NCBI GenBank assembly: GCA_963422645.2
Contig: CAXXVO010000008.1
Location: forward strand, 480,001 to 544,000
Source of the DNA: Alphaproteobacteria bacterium
Lineage (GTDB): Bacteria; Pseudomonadota; Alphaproteobacteria; UBA828
Direction: 5' to 3'
Length of the DNA stretch: 64,000 bases
Below, piece after piece: positions 33,695 to 42,973 of the stretch. The number at the start of each line of letters is the position of its first letter. Within the stretch, counting starts at the first letter, position 1. The notes below the pieces were generated by a model. That model saw nothing but the letters and a program-made list of their open reading frames with translations. It was not told the DNA's origin and did not search any database. A program made the position numbers and the translations under genes.

Positions 33695-35455
33695 ATGACA
33701 AGCAGCACGAACGGACGCAATGGCGGTGGTTTCGAGACCGACGTGGTGACCCGCGAGATCGTGCGCGGCAAGCTGCTGGCGGTGGCGGACGAGATGGGCG
33801 TGGTACTCGCGCGGAGCAGCATGAGCCCGGTGATCTACGAGGTGCTCGACTTCGCCTGCGGCTTTTGCGACGCGGACGGCGAGCTCGTCTCCCAGACCAA
33901 CGGGATCACGGTCTTCACCGGCACCTTCTCGATCCAGATCAACATCATCAAGGAGAAGTTCGCGGGCCGCATCCGGCCGGGCGACATCTACATGCTCAAC
34001 GACCCCTTCCACGGCGGCACCCATTACAACGACGTCGGCGTTGTAAAGCCGGTGTTCGTGGACGGCGAGCTCTTCGCCTTCGCCATCTCGATCTCGCACT
34101 GGACCGACATCGGCGGCAAGGCGCCCGGCTCGCTGCCGGCGGACGCGACCGAGATATTCCAGGAGGGCATCTGCTTCCCCGGCATCCACGTCTACAAGGA
34201 GGGCGAGCGACAGGACGCCATCTTCGAGATGATCGCCGCCAACGTGCGCCTGCCGAAGATGGCGCTCGGCGATCTCAACGCGGCGCTGGCATCGGTGCGC
34301 ATCGCCGAGAATCGCTGCCTCGAGCTTTGTGAGAAGTACGGCAAGCAGGCGGTCGCGGAGACCTTCCGCCATATCCTGGAGACCAGCGAGCGGGTAAGCC
34401 GCGAGGCCGTCGCCGCGCTGCCGGACGGCACCTACGAGGCCGAGGACTGGATCGATGGCGACGGCATCACCGAGGAGCGCTTCCGTACGAAGGTGGCTGT
34501 CACCATCGAGGGCGATGACATCACCGTCGACTACACGGGCTCCTGCGACCAGCTTCAGGGGCCGGTCAACTGCTCGCGCTCGGCCCTCGTCTCGGCGGTG
34601 AAGACGGTCTTCAAGGCGATCGTCGATCCCCAGTCGCCCTCCAACGAAGGTTGGTTCCGGCCGCTGAAGGTCGAGGCGCCGGACGGCACGGTGTTCACCG
34701 CGACCAAGCCCGCACCGGTCGGCTGGTACTACGAGGGCACCGGCCAGGCCTCCGAGCTCGCGTGGAAGGCGCTCGCCCCCATCGCGCCCAAGCGGGTCAG
34801 CATGGGCAGCGCGAACAGCCTCTGCGTGACCGTCCTCGGCGGCCACGACCGCGTCAAGGGCGAGCCCTGGGTGATGATCGAGCCGAGCATGGTCGGCTGG
34901 GGCGCCACCGACGAGCGCGACGGCAACTGCGTGACCAGCGCCATCACCAACGGCGATACCTTCAACTATTCCATCGAGCTCCTGGAGGCGAAGTTCCCGG
35001 TCCGGGTCAACCAGTATGCGCTCAACACGCCGGGCGGCGTCGGCGCCGGCCGCCATCGGGGCGGCTACGGCTCGATCCGCGAATACGAGATTCTGACCGA
35101 CGACGCCGTGCTTTCGGCAAGCTACGGCCGCTCGATCGAGAAGCCGTGGGCGCAGGAGGGCGGCGGCGAGGGCTCCTGCAACTACTTCGAGCTCCATGTC
35201 GGCAACGACGCCCGCCGGGCGGCGCGGGCACCGACCACGATCATGAAGCGGGGCGACATCATCCGCATGTTCACCGGCGGCGGCGGCGGATATGGAGACC
35301 CCTTCCGGCGGCCTGCCGAGGAGGTGCTTGCGGAAGTCCGCGCGGACTACATCTCCGCCGAGCGCGCCCGCGAGGACTACGGCGTGGTCGTCGCGGCGGG
35401 TGGCCGCGCCGTCGACGAGGAAGCGACCGCCAAGCTGCGCGCCGCAGCCGCCTAG
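33695..35455 (+). CDS. Hydantoinase B/oxoprolinase family protein
   Basis: NDPFHGGTH.ND, HWTDIGG, GGGGYGDP. Confidence 0.93.
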   Translation: MTSSTNGRNGGGFETDVVTREIVRGKLLAVADEMGVVLARSSMSPVIYEVLDFACGFCDADGELVSQTNGITVFTGTFSIQINIIKEKFAGRIRPGDIYMLNDPFHGGTHYNDVGVVKPVFVDGELFAFAISISHWTDIGGKAPGSLPADATEIFQEGICFPGIHVYKEGERQDAIFEMIAANVRLPKMALGDLNAALASVRIAENRCLELCEKYGKQAVAETFRHILETSERVSREAVAALPDGTYEAEDWIDGDGITEERFRTKVAVTIEGDDITVDYTGSCDQLQGPVNCSRSALVSAVKTVFKAIVDPQSPSNEGWFRPLKVEAPDGTVFTATKPAPVGWYYEGTGQASELAWKALAPIAPKRVSMGSANSLCVTVLGGHDRVKGEPWVMIEPSMVGWGATDERDGNCVTSAITNGDTFNYSIELLEAKFPVRVNQYALNTPGGVGAGRHRGGYGSIREYEILTDDAVLSASYGRSIEKPWAQEGGGEGSCNYFELHVGNDARRAARAPTTIMKRGDIIRMFTGGGGGYGDPFRRPAEEVLAEVRADYISAERAREDYGVVVAAGGRAVDEEATAKLRAAAA

Positions 35456-35469
35456 CGCGCGGGTCGATC

Positions 35470-37515
35470 ATGGGCCGGCTCGCGTCCGATATCGGCGGCA
35501 CCTTCACCGATCTGGTCTACTTCGACGATGCGCAGGGCTCGCTGCGCACCGCTAAATCCCTCACCACGCCGGGGGACCTGACCCAGGGCGTGATCGATAC
35601 CGTCAAGCTCTCGGACCTCGCGCCCGACGAGGTGGATTTCTTCGTCCACGGCGGTACCACGGTCATCAACGCCATTACCGAGCGCAAGGGCGCCCGGACG
35701 GCGCTGGTCACGACCGCCGGCTTTCGCGACGTGCTGGAGATTCAGCGCGGCAACCGGCCGGACCTCTACAATTTACGCTTCGAGAAGGAGCGCCCCTTCG
35801 TGCCCCGCCTGCTGCGCTTCGAGGTGCGCGAGCGGGTGGATGCGGCAGGCAACGTGCTGCGGCCTCTGGAGAAGTCGGACCTCGGCCTCGTCGTCGCCCG
35901 CTGCCGGGAGGAGAAGGTCGAGGCGATCGCGATCCAATTCCTCCACAGCTACGTGGCACCCCGGCACGAGGCCGAGACCGCCGCCCATCTGCGGGAGCGC
36001 CTGCCGGGCGTGAGCATCACCGCCTCTCACGAGATCACCCGCGAGTGGCGCGAGTACGAGCGCGCCAACACGGCGGTGCTCAACGCCTACGTGCAGCCCA
36101 TCGTTCAGACCTACTTCGGCCAGCTGGAGCAGGCGCTGGGCGGTGCCGACATCCGCTGCGCCTGCGCCGCCATGCAGTCCAACGGCGGCACCACCAGTTT
36201 CTCATGGGCCAAGGAACACCCCATTACCCTCATGGAATCGGGGCCGGCGGCGGGCTGCAACGGCGCCGCCATCGTGGGCAACCTCTGCGACGAGCCCCGG
36301 GTCATCTATCTCGACATCGGCGGCACCACCGCGAAGTGCACCACCATCGAGGACGGCACGCCCAAGGTGACCACCGAGTACCGGCTGGAGTACAGCCGCA
36401 CCCAGTTCGGTTACCCGCTGCGCGTGCCGGTGGTGGATATCGTGGAAATCGGGGCGGGCGGCGGCTCCATCGCCTGGTTCGACAAGGCGGGGCACTTGAA
36501 AGTGGGGCCGGTCTCCGCCGGCGCCGATCCGGGGCCCGCCTGCTACGGGCGGGGCGGCACCGAGCCGACCGTGACCGACGCCAAGCTCATCACCGGCGTC
36601 ATCAATCCCACCAACTTCGCCGGCGGGCAGTTCGACCTCGACGAGGGCAAGGCCCGCGCCGCCTTGGAGAAGATCGCGAGCGGCCTGGGCGTTGACGTGG
36701 TGGAAGCGGCGGTCGCGGTCATCCGCACGGTAGAAGCCAACATGATCAACGCGCTGAAGCTGGTCTCGATCCAGCGCGGCCACGACCCGCGCGACTTCGC
36801 CCTGGTCGTGGGCGGCGGCGGTGGGCCCATGCACGGCGCTCCCTTGGGCCGCGAGCTCGGCGTGAAGGAGATCATCGTGCCGCTCTACCCCGGCCTCTTC
36901 TCCGCCTGGGGCATGCTGGCTACCGAGCCTCGGCGCGATTTCATGCAGACCGTGCTGCGCCGCGACGAGGAGGTGGAGGCGGGCGACGTGCGCGCGGTCT
37001 TCGCCGGCCTCAAGGAGGAGGCGGAGCGCTATTACCAGACCGACGCCCACATGGGGGAGGCGGAGATCGCCTACGAGGGCCGCATCGACCTGCGCTATCT
37101 GGGGCAGGAGCACCCGGTAACCGTGCTCGTGGACATCGAGGCCGCCGAGGTCGACTCAATTCTCGCAGCCTTCCACGACGCGCACGAGAAGACCTACACC
37201 TTCCGCCTCGACGACACCCCGGTCGAGTTCGTGACCTACCGGCTTACCGCGTCCGCCAAGGTCCCGCGGCCGGAGATAACGAGGCTTGCCCCGAACGGGC
37301 GCTCGATCGAGGCGGCAGCGCGGCCCGCGCGCATGGCCGATTTCGCGGAGGACGGGCGCCACGAGGCTGCGGTCTACGAGCGGGACCGGCTGCCGCCCGG
37401 CGCGGAGCTGGCTGGGCCGCTGATCGTGGAAGAGGCCACCGCCACCACGCTCGTGCATCCCGGCCAGACGCTCCAGGTCGACGACTACGGCTTCCTGCGC
37501 ATCACCGACGCCTGA
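35470..37515 (+). CDS. Hydantoinase A/oxoprolinase family protein
   Basis: DIGGTFTD, SGPAAG, DIGGTT, GAGGGSIA, PTVTDA. Confidence 0.93.
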   Translation: MGRLASDIGGTFTDLVYFDDAQGSLRTAKSLTTPGDLTQGVIDTVKLSDLAPDEVDFFVHGGTTVINAITERKGARTALVTTAGFRDVLEIQRGNRPDLYNLRFEKERPFVPRLLRFEVRERVDAAGNVLRPLEKSDLGLVVARCREEKVEAIAIQFLHSYVAPRHEAETAAHLRERLPGVSITASHEITREWREYERANTAVLNAYVQPIVQTYFGQLEQALGGADIRCACAAMQSNGGTTSFSWAKEHPITLMESGPAAGCNGAAIVGNLCDEPRVIYLDIGGTTAKCTTIEDGTPKVTTEYRLEYSRTQFGYPLRVPVVDIVEIGAGGGSIAWFDKAGHLKVGPVSAGADPGPACYGRGGTEPTVTDAKLITGVINPTNFAGGQFDLDEGKARAALEKIASGLGVDVVEAAVAVIRTVEANMINALKLVSIQRGHDPRDFALVVGGGGGPMHGAPLGRELGVKEIIVPLYPGLFSAWGMLATEPRRDFMQTVLRRDEEVEAGDVRAVFAGLKEEAERYYQTDAHMGEAEIAYEGRIDLRYLGQEHPVTVLVDIEAAEVDSILAAFHDAHEKTYTFRLDDTPVEFVTYRLTASAKVPRPEITRLAPNGRSIEAAARPARMADFAEDGRHEAAVYERDRLPPGAELAGPLIVEEATATTLVHPGQTLQVDDYGFLRITDA

Positions 37516-37731
37516 CTAGGATTTCTCACAGGGCTACGACCTGCGTCGCGCGTGACGCAGGCAAGAGATGTTTGCTCGCTATACGCCGAATGGAAGGACG
37601 ATGACCGATGCCGGATAGCACTTCCCTCTTCGAGCGTGCCATTCCCCTGCTCGCCTCGCTGGATATCGGGGCCTCGCTCGACCACTTCAACAAGCTCGGT
37701 TTCGAAGCGCACAACTTCGGCGACAACTACG
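36423..37731 (+). repeat. 1,309-bp direct repeat, copy 1 (left flank of IS1634)
   Basis: Same sequence at 39655-40963 (offset 3232); includes the first 124 nt of the VOC gene (37608-37731). Confidence 0.93.
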
Positions 37732-39654
37732 CCTGACTTCGACGGTTGATTCGCGTAAGTATTTGAAATTGGCCGGTTCTCATTTCCGGCCAGGCACTAC
37801 ATCCGGCGGCGCTGCGAGACCGGGCCGGGTTTCGTCGGCGGTCAGTCGAGCTGGTACGGGGTGATCGTCAGGGGCAGCCCCATGGTCGCATAGATCTGTT
37901 CCGCCGCCGGTGTCGGCTTGGAGGGGATGACGTAGCGGTTGCCTGATTGGCGGCAGCGCAGGACCGAGCATTGGCGGTGGACGAGGGCGGAGCGGATGAC
38001 TTCCGGGGACATCCGCCGCTTCTGGATGGCGACGCGGTAGGCGAGGTGGCGGACGCAGGCGAAGGCCATGAAGGCGATGGCGATGTGGGCGCGGATCCGG
38101 TCCGGGTTCCAGTGCCAGATGGGGCGCACCCGCAGGTCGTGCTTGGTGATCCGGAAGCTCTCCTCGACCTGCCAGAGCCCGTGGTAGTGAGACATCACTT
38201 CGGTGACGCTGGCGTCGCGCAGATTGGTGATGACGCCGGCGAGCCCGTCCCATCGCTCGGCCTCGGCGATCTTCTCCGGGTTCACCGTGAGCCGGGCTTC
38301 GCCCTCGACGGCGATGAAGCGCTTCGCCCCGTGATTGGAGAGCAGCTCCTTCGGATTGTCGCTGCGGGCCAGCCTGTCGAGCAGGCGCTCCACCTGCTTG
38401 CGGCGCTCGTGTGCGTCCGTGCGCGCGCGCACGGGGCAGAAGACGACGATCAGGCGCCGGCCCTTGTGCTCCCATTCGCCGACCCGGCGCTTCTCCGGGC
38501 CCTCCAGCGGGGCATAGGTGCCCGGGTCGAGAATCTGCTTCCGCAGCGCGAGCGGCAGCTTGCGCAGCCGCGCGCCGACGACGTACTCGCCGCCGATCGT
38601 GTCCATGGCGTCGAGGTTGTCGGCGCTCAGCATGCCCCGGTCGGCCACGCACACCGTGCGCTCCACCTGGTGGCGGCGCTGCATGTCCTGCAAGACCGGG
38701 ACCAGGCTGTGCCCCTCGTAGGTGGCGCCGGGAAAGACCTCGTAGCCGATCGGCAGCCCTTCGCGCGTCACCATCAATGCCAGCAGGACCTGCGAGTCCT
38801 TGTGCTTGCCGTCCTTGCTGAAGCCGTGCTGGCGAAGCTCGTCCTCAACCGCGGTCTCGAAGTAGAGCGTGGTGCAATCGAAGAAGAGGAGCGCGACCGG
38901 CTCCGGCAGCAGCGATCGGCTCGCCTCGCCCACCTGCGTGCGCAGACGCTCGATCACGGTCGCGCCGAGTTGGTCCATCATGCGGTAGACCTTCTCAAGG
39001 GGAAGGCTCACGCCGAAGTCCTCCTCGAGCCGGCGCACGCTGCCCCGCTTGCTGTCGGGGTTGGCGATGCGTGCCATCACCACGTGGAACAGCGCGTCGT
39101 GCGAGGCCCGGTAGCGCGATCGCGGCAGCAGCGCATCGAGGCCCAGCAGGCGGTACATCTCGCCGTAGACCTCGTGGACGCCAGTGATCAGGCGCTGCTC
39201 CTCTTCGAGTTGCTTGAGATCGACCGGGAGTTCCTGCTTGCCGTCGCCCTGGCGTCCGACGCGGATCACCTGGTCTGCGATCTTCTCGGGCGCAAACAGC
39301 AAAGGCTGGCGCTGGTCCTCCAGCTTCGCCTTGACGTACTCGCCGAGCTGCCTCAGGCGCTCGATCTCGTCCTCGTCCATGGCCACGCCGATGTGGCGAA
39401 CGATGCGCTGTCGGACCTTGCCGCCGTCGCGCACGGCCTCGACGAGCTGGACCGAGCGTCGCGGGCTGTTGGGCGTGGTCTTGATGCGAACGAACACGGG
39501 GAAAGTGTAGCGCGCGGCGGGGGTATCGACAACCACATATACCTACTAGGCACTACAAAGCGGCTTGACCGCACCGCAACTTCTAAGTCATTGTCTTTGC
39601 AGAAAACTCCAGACGGGAGATCAGCCAAAATCCGGCCCAACCGTCGAAGTCAGG
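37732..39654 (-). mobile_element. IS1634-family element
   Basis: Perfect 17-bp TIR CCTGACTTCGACGGTTG. Confidence 0.93.
37842..39497 (-). CDS. IS1634 family transposase
   Basis: FFDCTTLYFE, GFSKDGK, VADRGM, YHGLWQVEESFRITK..L..RP; GTG start inferred. Confidence 0.92.
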   Translation of the reverse strand: MFVRIKTTPNSPRRSVQLVEAVRDGGKVRQRIVRHIGVAMDEDEIERLRQLGEYVKAKLEDQRQPLLFAPEKIADQVIRVGRQGDGKQELPVDLKQLEEEQRLITGVHEVYGEMYRLLGLDALLPRSRYRASHDALFHVVMARIANPDSKRGSVRRLEEDFGVSLPLEKVYRMMDQLGATVIERLRTQVGEASRSLLPEPVALLFFDCTTLYFETAVEDELRQHGFSKDGKHKDSQVLLALMVTREGLPIGYEVFPGATYEGHSLVPVLQDMQRRHQVERTVCVADRGMLSADNLDAMDTIGGEYVVGARLRKLPLALRKQILDPGTYAPLEGPEKRRVGEWEHKGRRLIVVFCPVRARTDAHERRKQVERLLDRLARSDNPKELLSNHGAKRFIAVEGEARLTVNPEKIAEAERWDGLAGVITNLRDASVTEVMSHYHGLWQVEESFRITKHDLRVRPIWHWNPDRIRAHIAIAFMAFACVRHLAYRVAIQKRRMSPEVIRSALVHRQCSVLRCRQSGNRYVIPSKPTPAAEQIYATMGLPLTITPYQLD

Positions 39655-40963
39655 CGTGCCGGTGGTGGATATCGTGGAAATCGGGGCGGGCGGCGGCTCC
39701 ATCGCCTGGTTCGACAAGGCGGGGCACTTGAAAGTGGGGCCGGTCTCCGCCGGCGCCGATCCGGGGCCCGCCTGCTACGGGCGGGGCGGCACCGAGCCGA
39801 CCGTGACCGACGCCAAGCTCATCACCGGCGTCATCAATCCCACCAACTTCGCCGGCGGGCAGTTCGACCTCGACGAGGGCAAGGCCCGCGCCGCCTTGGA
39901 GAAGATCGCGAGCGGCCTGGGCGTTGACGTGGTGGAAGCGGCGGTCGCGGTCATCCGCACGGTAGAAGCCAACATGATCAACGCGCTGAAGCTGGTCTCG
40001 ATCCAGCGCGGCCACGACCCGCGCGACTTCGCCCTGGTCGTGGGCGGCGGCGGTGGGCCCATGCACGGCGCTCCCTTGGGCCGCGAGCTCGGCGTGAAGG
40101 AGATCATCGTGCCGCTCTACCCCGGCCTCTTCTCCGCCTGGGGCATGCTGGCTACCGAGCCTCGGCGCGATTTCATGCAGACCGTGCTGCGCCGCGACGA
40201 GGAGGTGGAGGCGGGCGACGTGCGCGCGGTCTTCGCCGGCCTCAAGGAGGAGGCGGAGCGCTATTACCAGACCGACGCCCACATGGGGGAGGCGGAGATC
40301 GCCTACGAGGGCCGCATCGACCTGCGCTATCTGGGGCAGGAGCACCCGGTAACCGTGCTCGTGGACATCGAGGCCGCCGAGGTCGACTCAATTCTCGCAG
40401 CCTTCCACGACGCGCACGAGAAGACCTACACCTTCCGCCTCGACGACACCCCGGTCGAGTTCGTGACCTACCGGCTTACCGCGTCCGCCAAGGTCCCGCG
40501 GCCGGAGATAACGAGGCTTGCCCCGAACGGGCGCTCGATCGAGGCGGCAGCGCGGCCCGCGCGCATGGCCGATTTCGCGGAGGACGGGCGCCACGAGGCT
40601 GCGGTCTACGAGCGGGACCGGCTGCCGCCCGGCGCGGAGCTGGCTGGGCCGCTGATCGTGGAAGAGGCCACCGCCACCACGCTCGTGCATCCCGGCCAGA
40701 CGCTCCAGGTCGACGACTACGGCTTCCTGCGCATCACCGACGCCTGACTAGGATTTCTCACAGGGCTACGACCTGCGTCGCGCGTGACGCAGGCAAGAGA
40801 TGTTTGCTCGCTATACGCCGAATGGAAGGACGATGACCGATGCCGGATAGCACTTCCCTCTTCGAGCGTGCCATTCCCCTGCTCGCCTCGCTGGATATCG
40901 GGGCCTCGCTCGACCACTTCAACAAGCTCGGTTTCGAAGCGCACAACTTCGGCGACAACTACG
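39655..40963 (+). repeat. 1,309-bp direct repeat, copy 2 (5'-less hydantoinase A fragment 39655-40747)
   Basis: Duplicate of 36423-37731. Confidence 0.93.
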
Positions 40964-41235
40964 GTATCGCCGTCCGCGAGCACATCGAGATCCACTTCTG
41001 GCTTTGCACGGACAAGAGCGTCGCCGAGAACACCTCCTGCTACGTCCGTGTGAACGACATTCGCGCGCTGCGCGCAGACCTCGCCAGACGCACCGACGTG
41101 GGCGAGGTCGTCGAAACCTCCTGGGGCATGGACGAACTCTATGTGTGGGACCCGACCGGCAGCCTGGTGAAGTTCGGTCAAGTGACGGACAGGCTGATCC
41201 GGGCGGAAGCCGTGAAAGAGGCGCCTTCGGACTAA
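40840..41235 (+). CDS. VOC/bleomycin-resistance family protein
   Basis: AIPLL, LGF, CYVRV, WGMDELYVWDP.G.LVKFGQ. Confidence 0.85.
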   Translation: MPDSTSLFERAIPLLASLDIGASLDHFNKLGFEAHNFGDNYGIAVREHIEIHFWLCTDKSVAENTSCYVRVNDIRALRADLARRTDVGEVVETSWGMDELYVWDPTGSLVKFGQVTDRLIRAEAVKEAPSD

Positions 41236-41350
41236 GGCGCGTCCGTCCTTGACGGATGCGCCACAGGCCGCGACCGCGGCCCGCCGCTAATGCGGCGCGC
41301 CCGCGCAGGCACCGGCCCTAGGCCGGCTGCCGTGAGCGACAAATAGCAAA

Positions 41351-41377
41351 AGCGTTTCCGTATGAATCGGAAACGCT
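41351..41377 (-). terminator. Intrinsic terminator after the groEL-like gene
   Basis: 10-bp stem AGCGTTTCCG/CGGAAACGCT directly after the stop, followed by a T-rich run on the minus strand. Confidence 0.65.
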
Positions 41378-42973
41378 CTAGATCGCGTCCGGACGGCGGG
41401 CGAGCGCGACCGCGCAGCCCGTAGACAAGAGCTGCCCGGCGGTCACCGCCGCATTGGTCAGCGCCGTCGCCGTCACCCGGGTCGCGTCGATCACGCCGGC
41501 CTCGCGATAGGGGCGAAAGGCGCCCTCGCGTGCGTCGAAGCCGATGTCCGCCGACGCTTCCCTCAGCGTTTCGAGGGCGATGGACGGCTCGCACCCGGCG
41601 GCGCCCGCGATGCGGCGGAAGGGCTCCTGCAGGGCACGGGCGAAGGCGCGGCGCTCGGGCTCCGCCGAACCGGCGGCACCGTCTTCGATGGCGAAGGCGA
41701 CGCGCGCGAGCGCCACGCCGCCGCCCGCGACCACACCCTCCGCCGCTGCCGCGCGGGCGGTGTTGAGCGCGTTCTCGCAGGCCTTGTAGCGCGCCTTCCA
41801 GGCGGTCTCGGTGACGCCGCCGACCCGAAGGTTGGCGACGCCCGAGACGAGCCGGGCAAGCCGCGCCTCGAGCTTGCCCCGGTCGTAGCTCTTGCGCTCG
41901 TGCTCGATGGCGTCGCGAATTTGCGCGGCGCGACGCTCCACCGCCGCCGCCTCGCCACCGCTACCAAAGATGGTGGTCGAGACCCCGTCCACGATCGCCC
42001 GCTTGGCGGAGCCGAGCGCGGTGGCGTCGACCTTTTCCGGCAACAGGCCGGTTTCCTCGCCGACCATGCGCCCGCCCGTGAGCACCGCGACGTCGTCGGT
42101 CGCGACATGGCGATAGATGCCGGACTCCGGTCCCTTCGCCGCCGCGCAATGGACCGTCCCCTCGCGGTGGTTGGTCAGCAAGGCTGCGAGCGCCTGGTCG
42201 GAGACATCCTGCGCCAGCACCAGCAGGCTCCGCTTGCCCTCGCGCGCCGCCTCCAGCGCAGGCACGACCTGGGCCGCTTCGGTCAGCTCGCCCTGGCACA
42301 TCAGCAGGAAGGGCTGGTCGAGCTTGACCTCCGTCTCGCCCGCCTTGAGCAGGAAGTTGCGCGAGAGCAGGCCGTGCTCGAAGGCCATGCCGCTCATGTA
42401 GTCGACCGTCGTATCGACGCCCTGGTGGTAGGAGATGCTGACGACGCCCTCGGGCCCTAGGCGCTCCACCGCCTCGGCCACCAGGCCCGCAATCTCATCG
42501 TCGCCGTCGGCGGCGACACCGGCGAGCTGCGCGAGCATCGCGCGGCCTGCGACCGGGCCGCTGTGCGGCTCCAGTGCCGCCAGGGCCTCGCGCGTGAGCC
42601 GCTCGAAGCCGCGCCGCACCGAGGGCGGATCGATTCCCGCCGCCACCAGGCGCAACCCGGCCTCGGCGAAAGCGCCGGCGAGCAGCGCCGTGGTGGTCGA
42701 GCCGTCGCCCACTGCATCGCGGGTCTTCTTGACGCAGGCCTTCAGCAGCTCCGTGCCGAGGGTCGCGAAGCGGTCCTCGTCCTCGAGGTCCCTGATGGCG
42801 GTGAAGCCGTCGCGGGTGAGCTCGGGGTAATCGTCCGCGCGCTCCAGCACGACGCGGCCGCCGTGAGGGCCGAGCGTCAGCCCCGCGAGCCGGGCGGTGT
42901 GCCCGAAACCCGCCATCAACGCCTCGCGGGCGTCGGCTCCGGTCTTGATGTGCTTGGGCCGCTCGAGCGCCAT
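41378..42973 (-). CDS. Divergent GroEL/Cpn60-like chaperonin
   Basis: TLGP.G..V, TRDG, GDGSTTT, EGVVAGGG, GVID; D398-equivalent is Asn; no GGM tail. Confidence 0.88.
   Translation of the reverse strand: MALERPKHIKTGADAREALMAGFGHTARLAGLTLGPHGGRVVLERADDYPELTRDGFTAIRDLEDEDRFATLGTELLKACVKKTRDAVGDGSTTTALLAGAFAEAGLRLVAAGIDPPSVRRGFERLTREALAALEPHSGPVAGRAMLAQLAGVAADGDDEIAGLVAEAVERLGPEGVVSISYHQGVDTTVDYMSGMAFEHGLLSRNFLLKAGETEVKLDQPFLLMCQGELTEAAQVVPALEAAREGKRSLLVLAQDVSDQALAALLTNHREGTVHCAAAKGPESGIYRHVATDDVAVLTGGRMVGEETGLLPEKVDATALGSAKRAIVDGVSTTIFGSGGEAAAVERRAAQIRDAIEHERKSYDRGKLEARLARLVSGVANLRVGGVTETAWKARYKACENALNTARAAAAEGVVAGGGVALARVAFAIEDGAAGSAEPERRAFARALQEPFRRIAGAAGCEPSIALETLREASADIGFDAREGAFRPYREAGVIDATRVTATALTNAAVTAGQLLSTGCAVALARRPDAI

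What the first reader, a model, noticed from the sequence alone, without database searches (positions are those of the whole stretch)
36423..40963. IS1634 flanked by a 1,309-bp target duplication that leaves both host genes intact
Seen: the 1,923-bp IS (17-bp TIRs) directly abuts two copies of 1,309 bp (36423-37731 and 39655-40963), with no differences noticed by eye. The breakpoints fall inside two different genes, yet the hydantoinase A gene stays complete on the left and the VOC gene complete on the right. Known: IS1634 and IS1549 make long variable direct repeats of tens to several hundred bp. Inference: a kilobase-scale TSD implies widely separated strand-transfer events, a near-harmless insertion, precise loss by homologous recombination, and a route to partial gene duplication.
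Basis: partly seen in the sequence, partly recalled or inferred. Interest (0 to 1): 0.78.

Follow-up and report, generated by a model that had tools for sequence, protein, structure and literature searches.

The report
Jumping gene with 1.3-kb target duplication
A 1.9-kb jumping gene of the IS1634 family copied 1,309 bases of host DNA onto both of its sides when it landed, the longest case of a known but unexplained habit of this family, and this left both genes it hit with an intact copy.

Summary
A 1,923-bp IS with perfect 17-bp inverted ends (37732-39654) sits between two identical 1,309-bp copies of host DNA (36423-37731, 39655-40963). Its transposase scores as IS1634 family.

The repeat is a genuine target-site duplication. 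All 9 copies of the IS in this genome trace to insertions with perfect abutting repeats of 85-1,309 bp. Seven show them directly; two are reciprocal flank swaps. Two related genomes carry the empty site with one copy of the segment. Contig depths in two of four sequencing runs are about double over the repeat.

In other genomes, 36 of 54 related elements have repeats of 16-812 bp. The 45 lengths fit one log-normal distribution, and 1,309 bp is its tail. Both IS ends prefer the same short target half-site, YT^C, in inverted orientation. This supports two separate, widely staggered strand transfers.

Long variable repeats were already described for IS1634 and IS1549 (8-514 bp, PMC2266710). This is therefore a new family member with a record length, not a new kind of element. 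Earlier notes of this scan found 177-304 bp cases on other DNA.

The parts
33695..35455 (+). hyuB (hydantoinase B/oxoprolinase), upstream gene of the operon, untouched
   Evidence: Pfam Hydantoinase_B, E 5e-162
35470..37515 (+). hyuA (hydantoinase A/oxoprolinase), complete copy; the left joint of the duplicated segment (36422/36423) lies inside it
   Evidence: Pfam Hydant_A_N, Hydantoinase_A and Hydant_A_C; the only in-frame start between 35400 and 35520 is ATG 35470
36423..37731 (.). Left copy of the 1,309-bp target-site duplication
   Evidence: 100% identical to 39655-40963
37608..37736 (+). Remnant of the VOC-like gene: 41 native codons, then one codon and a TGA stop supplied by the IS end
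   Evidence: Translation (42 aa before the stop)
37732..39654 (.). IS1634-family insertion sequence, 1,923 bp, one of 9 near-identical copies in the genome
   Evidence: The other 8 copies differ from this one at a single base (window 39365).
37732..37748 (+). Left terminal inverted repeat CCTGACTTCGACGGTTG
   Evidence: (I10). The core C[CT]TGACTTCGACGG is kept at both ends in 54 of 57 related loci.
39638..39654 (-). Right terminal inverted repeat (perfect complement of the left one)
37842..39536 (-). Transposase, 564 aa, candidate DDE triad D220/D299/E458
   Evidence: NCBIfam NF033559 (IS1634 family), 346 bits against a cut-off of 100; Pfam DDE_Tnp_1; the three acidic residues are invariant in 18 of 18 aligned transposases
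39655..40963 (.). Right copy of the 1,309-bp target-site duplication
39656..40747 (+). Truncated second copy of hyuA (C-terminal 363 codons, open frame with a GTG start)
   Evidence: (ORF list)
40840..41235 (+). Complete VOC/bleomycin-binding-like gene (131 aa); the right joint (40963/40964) lies in its codon 42
   Evidence: The family matches are weak.

Best explanation
This is a genuine target-site duplication made by the IS's own transposition.

Proposed mechanism: the right IS end joined the top strand inside hyuA (at 36422/36423 of the original site). The left IS end joined the bottom strand 1,309 bp downstream, inside the VOC-like gene. The polarity is the usual 5'-stagger of DDE transposases, but the stagger is enormous. 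Repair synthesis then copied the 1,309-nt interval on both sides.

Each IS end picks its own short half-site (preferred YT^CWTT, read towards the IS end). The distance between the two half-sites is variable, log-normal with a geometric mean of about 140 bp, and longer in GC-rich DNA. The 1,309-bp case is the tail of that distribution.

Shown here:
- the anatomy of the locus;
- long repeats at every copy of the IS;
- the empty sites;
- the half-site preference at both joints;
- the length distribution.

Inferred, not shown:
- that both ends attack one duplex;
- the strand-displacement repair;
- precise loss of the IS by recombination between the repeats.
For: - Family: the transposase matches NF033559 (IS1634 family) at 346 bits against a cut-off of 100. 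A DDE triad is invariant in 18 of 18 aligned relatives.
- Copies: there are 9 full copies at 99.95-100% identity, all internal to contigs.
- Repeats in this genome: 7 of 9 copies have perfect abutting repeats of 85-1,309 bp. The other 2 are reciprocal flank swaps that restore repeats of 187 and 478 bp.
- Empty sites in relatives: L002 (94% identity) and L003 (about 90%) hold the 1,309-bp segment once, with hyuA and the VOC-like gene contiguous and no IS.
- Empty sites in this genome: uninterrupted paralogous copies exist for the targets of the 751-bp and 85-bp events.
- Sequencing runs: in run X16 the flank contigs have depth 41-46, the repeat contigs 75-85, a 57-nt contig across the repeat/IS-left junction 52, and the IS 475. 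In run X15 the figures are about 11, 28 and 104. In run X1 the repeat is at flank depth, and a contig runs 87 letters past 37731 into non-IS sequence, which fits an empty site.
- Relatives of the IS: 36 of 54 loci with both end motifs have abutting repeats of 16-812 bp, 31 of them perfect. A further 4 of the 18 without repeats are two reciprocal swap pairs.
- Lengths: the 45 values fit a log-normal (Shapiro P 0.97). P(>=1,309) is 0.010 per event and 0.37 for at least one such event in 45.
- Half-site: over 90 joints, T at -1 in 61, C or T at -2 in 73, C at +1 in 45. The two ends behave alike, 29 of 45 and 32 of 45.
- Repeat length falls with local AT content: Spearman -0.53, P 1.7e-4.
- Literature: IS1549 and IS1634 make repeats of 8-514 bp and no model has been proposed (PMC2266710, passages read).
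Against: - No read or contig spans the whole 4.5-kb structure. The loose-end table was truncated, so the IS-right/repeat-start junction was not seen directly. Contig depths are mean word depths, not copy numbers. Run X18 was ambiguous (about 8 against 11.3).
- The C9 joints themselves do not fit the half-site: G at -1 on both sides. In this genome only 8 of 18 joints have T at -1, against 53 of 72 in relatives.
- 13 of 54 related loci have neither a repeat nor a swap partner among the loci fetched.
- Half-site motifs are not depleted inside the repeats (ratio 0.86-1.03), so a simple 'next suitable site' search is not supported.
- The AT correlation is confounded by host and IS lineage. Within single genomes it is not significant.
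- Exact length coincidences exceed expectation, 8 pairs against 2.6 (P 0.009). This is unexplained.
- Nothing here shows the chemistry.
Confidence: 0.8

Rival explanations
1. The duplication is genuine and transposition-linked, but the two IS ends joined two different sister duplexes behind a replication fork, or a gapped lagging strand, at offset positions. On this view the duplication is a by-product of replication rather than of a wide stagger on one duplex.
For: Repeat lengths reach about 1.3 kb and no further in 45 events, the order of size of bacterial Okazaki fragments (recalled, not tested). Many repeats are shorter than 100 bp (17 of 45), which is hard to explain by passive looping of duplex DNA (inference). 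Copy positions and orientations on one 3.39-Mb chromosome looked replichore-biased (listing).
Against: IS orientation shows no bias against the local GC skew of the flanks: 28 of 57 loci positive, and 12 of 22 on that same chromosome. The model predicts duplications and deletions equally unless constrained, yet 9 of 9 events here are duplications.
Confidence: 0.12
2. Two independent ordinary insertions of the IS, one at each end of the 1,309-bp segment on sister chromosomes, were followed by unequal crossing-over within the IS. This would leave segment-IS-segment.
For: IS-by-IS recombination does occur in this genome: the C12 and C15:323310 copies have swapped flanks. In Mycoplasma mycoides PG1, 13-kb tandem repeats separated by about 1.8 kb and flanked by IS1634 copies were ascribed to IS-mediated duplication and are unstable on passage (PMC1798306, passages read).
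Against: It would have to have happened separately at all 9 events here and at 36-40 events elsewhere. Progenitor copies with short duplications are almost absent: 0 of 9 here, and 1 of 54 with a 6-bp repeat in relatives. No outer IS copies flank the segment.
Confidence: 0.04
3. An assembly artefact, or a mixed population (for example an empty chromosome plus an extrachromosomal circle of IS plus segment) that the assembler rendered as a duplication.
For: No single read spanning the structure was seen. Run X1 appears to have the segment once.
Against: The same architecture recurs at every copy in this genome and in independent assemblies of other taxa. The repeat contigs have about twice the flank depth in X15 and X16, and in X16 a contig crosses the repeat/IS junction at single-copy depth. 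Experiments on IS1549 and IS1634 describe the same habit (PMC2266710).
Confidence: 0.03

Closest known systems
[quoted passage not shown]
   Same: Same transposase family by NCBIfam model. Size class 1.5-2.0 kb. A single DDE transposase gene. Long repeats whose length differs from copy to copy. No mechanism is known (PMC2266710).
   Different: The published range is 8-514 bp (PMC2266710). A 13-bp IS1549 duplication is reported in PMC10066036. Here the range is 85-1,309 bp in one genome and 16-812 bp in relatives. The hosts are GC-rich Alphaproteobacteria and mostly sponge-associated MAGs. I could not compare the sequences directly: the original papers (PMC93511, PMC106989) are not held and no reference sequence was available.
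ISPfe2 (Paracoccus ferrooxidans), ISGka5 (Geobacillus kaustophilus) and most other IS1634-family members
   Same: Same family, similar length (ISPfe2 is 1,884 bp), short terminal inverted repeats.
   Different: These make 5-6-bp duplications, shown experimentally (PMC3281130; PMC8024623; family table in PMC2266710). In my sample of 8 distant plasmid-borne members, the 5 proteobacterial ones had 0-4 bp and the 3 actinobacterial ones 45-58 bp (heuristic end-finding).
IS-bounded tandem duplications, e.g. the 13-kb repeats around IS1634 in M. mycoides PG1
   Same: The arrangement segment-IS-segment. Loss by recombination between the repeats was observed there on passage (PMC1798306).
   Different: Those repeats are flanked by further IS copies and are ascribed to IS-by-IS recombination. 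Here there are no outer copies, and the repeat abuts both IS ends to the base.

Membership tests
IS1634 family (ISfinder; formerly IS1549 group of IS4) | Transposase recognised by the family profile | tested here: met
   NF033559 transpos_IS1634, 346 bits against a cut-off of 100, covering profile positions 1-482 of 483. The next best model, IS4, scores 47 bits, below its cut-off. tblastn hits in plasmids are annotated as IS1634 family transposase.
IS1634 family (ISfinder; formerly IS1549 group of IS4) | DDE catalytic triad in a DDE_Tnp_1-type domain | tested here: met
   Pfam PF01609, E 3.8e-14. D220, D299 and E458 are invariant in 18 of 18 aligned transposases, including 8 distant annotated members. 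Their catalytic role is inferred from conservation.
IS1634 family (ISfinder; formerly IS1549 group of IS4) | Length 1,500-2,000 bp with ends of the form C-----YT (table in PMC2266710) | tested here: met
   1,923 bp. The end CCTGACTT has C at position 1 and T, T at positions 7-8.
IS1634 family (ISfinder; formerly IS1549 group of IS4) | Incomplete YREK motif downstream of the catalytic E | not tested
   I did not map the motif; no reference alignment was to hand.
Long-repeat subgroup (IS1634 / IS1549 behaviour) | Direct repeats that are long and differ in length between copies of the same element | tested here: met
   9 of 9 events in this genome, 85-1,309 bp. 36 of 54 related loci, 16-812 bp.
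Long-repeat subgroup (IS1634 / IS1549 behaviour) | Repeats are created on insertion (empty site has one copy) | tested here: met
   Empty sites in L002 and L003 for the 1,309-bp event. In-genome paralogous empty sites for the 751-bp and 85-bp events. De novo transposition was not observed.
Long-repeat subgroup (IS1634 / IS1549 behaviour) | Phylogenetic closeness to IS1634 or IS1549 themselves | not testable with these tools
   No reference sequences could be fetched. The nearest named plasmid relatives are 27-32% identical.

The most novel reading that the evidence does not exclude
In this clade the two IS ends are integrated by two spatially uncoupled single-end strand transfers. Each is aimed at its own YT^C half-site, and their spacing is set by the host DNA (longer where AT-rich sites are scarce), with no hard upper limit below about 1 kb.

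The element would then be a natural generator of kilobase segmental duplications. It could land inside operons without destroying genes, and it could be removed without a scar by recombination. With 9 near-identical copies in a sequenced isolate, it would be a tractable system for solving the mechanism, open since the late 1990s, behind IS1634/IS1549 long repeats.
Probability: 0.45. Interest if true: 0.68.

Novelty: new member of a known kind. Interest (0 to 1): 0.55.

Why it matters
Long, variable target duplications are a known but unexplained oddity of IS1549 and IS1634. As of the 2008 family review, no model had been proposed (PMC2266710).

This locus extends the reported range about 2.5-fold, to 1.3 kb. 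The surrounding data add three things that a mechanism must explain:
- One shared half-site preference at both joints, in inverted orientation.
- A single log-normal length distribution across 45 independent events.
- Longer repeats in GC-richer DNA.

There are biological consequences too. A kilobase duplication can keep both interrupted genes intact, as it does here. It creates partial gene copies (a 363-codon hyuA fragment). It also gives homologous recombination 1.3 kb of perfect substrate for scarless loss of the IS.

For genome annotation it is a warning. 'Segment-IS-segment' structures of this size can be simple insertions rather than recombination products or misassemblies.

Tried and rejected
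- Replication-linked orientation bias. Copy positions on one 3.39-Mb MAG chromosome (listing) suggested a replichore pattern. The local GC skew of the flanks gave 28 of 57 positive overall and 12 of 22 on that chromosome. Rejected.
- Helical phasing or any other periodicity of repeat length. Rayleigh z was at most 4.3 for periods of 9-12 bp. A scan of 8-320 bp gave a maximum z of 7.75, P 0.27 against the log-normal null. Rejected.
- Scan-to-first-site model. Half-site motifs are not depleted inside the repeats (ratios 0.86-1.03). Not supported.
- Shared ancestry of events with equal lengths. L011 and L072 share only the IS. No target similarity was found among the 45 events.
- Original descriptions of IS1549 and IS1634 (PMC106989, PMC93511). 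Not held, so the published range is taken from PMC2266710.
- Literature on kilobase duplications by bacterial ISs. The searches 'insertion sequence' + 'long target site duplication', 'IS1634 family' + 'target site', 'IS1634' + 'sponge' and 'variable-length direct repeats' + 'transposase' turned up no report of a duplication above 514 bp for this family. Supplements were not seen.
- Notes of this scan for this genome: none.
- Rfam on the 145-bp dispersed repeat next to the locus: no match.
- Run X18: flank about 8 against repeat contig 11.3. Uninformative.
Full report
**Observation**

With an offset of 3,232 nt the window matches itself perfectly over 36422-37731 and 39654-40963. Identity falls to 20-25% immediately outside.

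Between the copies lies an element with perfect 17-bp inverted ends, CCTGACTTCGACGGTTG (pair I10). It carries one long ORF on the minus strand, 37842-39536, 564 aa.

All 9 genomic copies of the element end in ...GTCAGG, including copies where the flanking repeat is not preceded by G. The ambiguous G at 39654 is therefore part of the IS.

**What the parts are**

- The ORF matches NCBIfam NF033559 (IS1634 family transposase) at 346 bits against a cut-off of 100, over nearly the whole profile. It also matches Pfam DDE_Tnp_1.
- In an alignment with 9 relatives from other genomes and 8 distant annotated plasmid copies, D220, D299 and E458 are invariant in 18 of 18 sequences.
- Upstream lie hyuB (33695-35455) and hyuA (ATG 35470 to 37515), with the three hydantoinase-A domains.
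- The left joint of the duplicated segment lies inside hyuA. The right joint lies in codon 42 of a 131-aa ORF (40840-41235).
- That ORF has only weak resemblance to bleomycin-binding/glyoxalase-fold (VOC) proteins.
- The left side therefore holds a complete hyuA plus a 42-aa stump of the VOC-like gene, which ends at a TGA inside the IS end.
- The right side holds a 363-codon hyuA fragment (39656-40747) plus the complete VOC-like gene.

**Is the repeat made by the IS?**

The genome (23 contigs, 5.9 Mb; the window is C9:480001-544000) holds 9 full-length copies, all inside contigs. Eight are identical to each other and differ from the window copy at one base. That base changes transposase codon 58 between Ile and Leu.

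Seven copies carry perfect repeats abutting both ends: 1,309, 751, 376, 279, 228, 133 and 85 bp.

The two copies without repeats are reciprocal. The last 187 nt left of the C12 copy equal the first 187 nt right of the C15:323310 copy. The first 478 nt right of C12 equal the last 478 nt left of C15:323310, both at 100%. They are two ordinary long-repeat insertions whose flanks were later exchanged by recombination between the IS copies.

All 9 insertion events thus have long repeats.

**Empty sites**

A search of 41 genomes, including this one, found the hyuA segment in most of the genus. I compared 7 fetched loci with the window, leaving out the self-match L001 and the short contigs L004 and L008.

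All 7 hold the hyuA part once and have no IS. Two of them cover the entire 1,309-bp segment once and run on through the VOC-like gene into the chaperonin gene: L002 (94% identity) and L003 (about 90%). The other 5 lack the VOC-like gene.

Within this genome, the targets of the 751-bp and 85-bp events are other repeated elements. Their uninterrupted paralogous copies carry the duplicated stretch once.

**Sequencing runs**

I laid Logan contigs of four runs labelled with the same organism on 35400-38400.

| Run | Flank contigs | Repeat contigs | IS | Other |
|---|---|---|---|---|
| X16 | 41-46 | 75 and 85 | 475 | 57-nt contig across 37731/37732 at 52 |
| X15 | about 11 | 28 | 104 | |
| X18 | about 8 | 11.3 | 67 | ambiguous |
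| X1 (older run) | 7.35 | 5.1-7.5 | 123 | one contig continues 87 letters past 37731 into non-IS sequence |

- In X16 the repeat contigs start at 36422 and end at 37731.
- The X1 pattern is what an empty site would give.
- These are mean word depths of contigs, not copy numbers.
- The loose-end table was truncated, so the IS-right/repeat-start junction was not seen.
- No record spans the whole structure.

**Relatives of the IS**

A scan of species-representative genomes gave 76 loci. Most are from long-read MAGs, many of them sponge-associated, at 51-96% protein identity.

I analysed 57. The 19 dropped had truncated matches or lay on short contigs: L046, L049, L054, L055, L057, L062, L064, L066, L067, L075-L079 and L081-L085.

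- The end core C[CT]TGACTTCGACGG is present at both ends in 54 of 57.
- Of those 54, 36 have abutting repeats of 16-812 bp. Thirty-one are perfect and five are 97-99% identical.
- Of the 18 without a repeat, 4 form two reciprocal swap pairs (334 and 114 bp; 107 and 79 bp).
- One (L017) is complex, one has a 6-bp repeat, and 13 in all remain unexplained.
- No two of the 45 targets resemble each other.

**Lengths**

The 45 lengths (9 from this genome plus 36) have a median of 135 and a geometric mean of 142 bp. They fit a log-normal (Shapiro on logs, P 0.97).

Under that fit P(>=1,309) is 0.010 per event and 0.37 for at least one such event in 45. The window's case is the tail of one process, not an outlier that needs its own cause.

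This genome's repeats are longer than those of relatives (median 279 against 116.5, P 0.012). Length falls with the AT content of the surrounding 6 kb: Spearman -0.53, P 1.7e-4 over events, and -0.57, P 0.04 over 13 genomes. Within single genomes the correlation is not significant.

There is no periodicity. Exact coincidences of length are commoner than expected, 8 pairs against 2.6 (P 0.009). I cannot explain that.

**Target choice**

Read towards the IS end, the 90 joints show:

| Position | Bases | Count of 90 | P |
|---|---|---|---|
| -1 | T | 61 | 9e-23 |
| -2 | C or T (G in 4) | 73 | 1.2e-8 |
| +1 | C | 45 | 5.6e-6 |
| +2 | A or T | 63 | 8.8e-6 |
| +3, +4 | T-rich | 37 each | 2e-4, 3.7e-4 |

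- The preference is equal at the two ends: T at -1 in 29 of 45 and 32 of 45.
- The flanks of repeat-less copies share it, 28 of 36.
- Each end therefore selects the same half-site, YT^CWTT, on opposite strands with the T-rich tails pointing outward.
- That is the geometry of a conventional 5'-staggered DDE insertion, stretched from a few bp to hundreds.
- The preference is weaker in this GC-rich genome (8 of 18 against 53 of 72) and absent at the C9 joints themselves.
- Motifs are not depleted inside the repeats, so the second end does not simply take the next site.

**Mechanism (inference)**

Two single-end strand transfers occur on opposite strands of one duplex, far apart. Strand-displacement repair synthesis across the interval follows.

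A sister-duplex or replication-fork variant remains possible but gained no support. Unequal crossing-over between two ordinary insertions, and assembly error, are very unlikely given the recurrence at every copy and in independent assemblies.

**Consequences**

In this event both interrupted genes keep an intact copy. That is not general: in 3 of 9 events both joints fall in one high-GC3 frame, so the gene is split (a rough ORF/GC3 criterion).

The VOC-like gene is now cut off from the hyuBA operon by the IS, so its expression may have changed (inference).

The perfect 1.3-kb repeats are a substrate for scarless loss. Run X1 may show either that state or the ancestral one.

**Comparison with what is known**

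The family review (PMC2266710, passages read) gives 5-6-bp AT-rich duplications as the family norm. It singles out IS1549 and IS1634 as making repeats of 8-514 bp, with no model proposed.

ISPfe2 and ISGka5 make 6 bp in experiments (PMC3281130; PMC8024623). A new IS1549 insertion with 13 bp is reported in PMC10066036.

In M. mycoides PG1, 13-kb repeats separated by about 1.8 kb and flanked by IS1634 are unstable on passage and were ascribed to IS-mediated duplication (PMC1798306).

Among 8 distant plasmid members that I sampled, 3 of 3 actinobacterial copies had repeats of 45-58 bp and 5 proteobacterial copies had 0-4 bp (heuristic end-finding).

Earlier notes of this scan report IS1634-family duplications of 177, 269 and 304 bp on other DNA. 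None is close to 1.3 kb. My four literature searches found no report above 514 bp for the family. Supplements and the two original papers could not be read.

**Verdict**

This is a new member of a known kind. Its repeat is the longest I could find in the literature I could read. The clade-wide data sharpen an open mechanistic question.

Noticed in passing
window 41237-41381: A dispersed repeat of about 145 bp between the VOC-like gene and the chaperonin gene. It ends in a hairpin (AGCGTTTCCG...CGGAAACGCT). Many copies at 82-93% identity occur across genomes of the genus and in this genome (C16, C22, C23, C7). No Rfam match.
   Followed up: partly
genome contigs C12:123700-125622 and C15:323310-325232: Two IS copies whose flanks were exchanged reciprocally (187-bp and 478-bp repeats split between them). 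This implies an inversion or translocation by IS-by-IS recombination.
   Followed up: partly
genome contigs C15:351869, C5:161196, C5:642746 (flanks): Three of the IS insertions sit inside or beside other multi-copy elements (0.7-1.8 kb repeats at 99-100% identity), a nest of mobile DNA. I did not identify what those elements are.
   Followed up: no
L015-L086 (loci): This IS clade has expanded strongly in long-read MAGs. At least 25 loci lie on one Ca. Poriferihabitaceae chromosome and 21 on one Ca. Spongiihabitans chromosome. The 14-nt end core is conserved down to 51% protein identity.
   Followed up: partly
45 insertion events: Identical repeat lengths recur at unrelated sites (252 bp three times, 85 bp three times, 187 and 48 bp twice each). 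That is 8 coincident pairs against 2.6 expected, P 0.009. Unexplained.
   Followed up: partly
window 41378-42973 (-): A Cpn60/TCP-1 family chaperonin gene lies directly downstream (Pfam E 1.9e-47). In 5 of 7 related loci it follows hyuA without the VOC-like gene, so the VOC-like gene is itself a variable insert.
   Followed up: no
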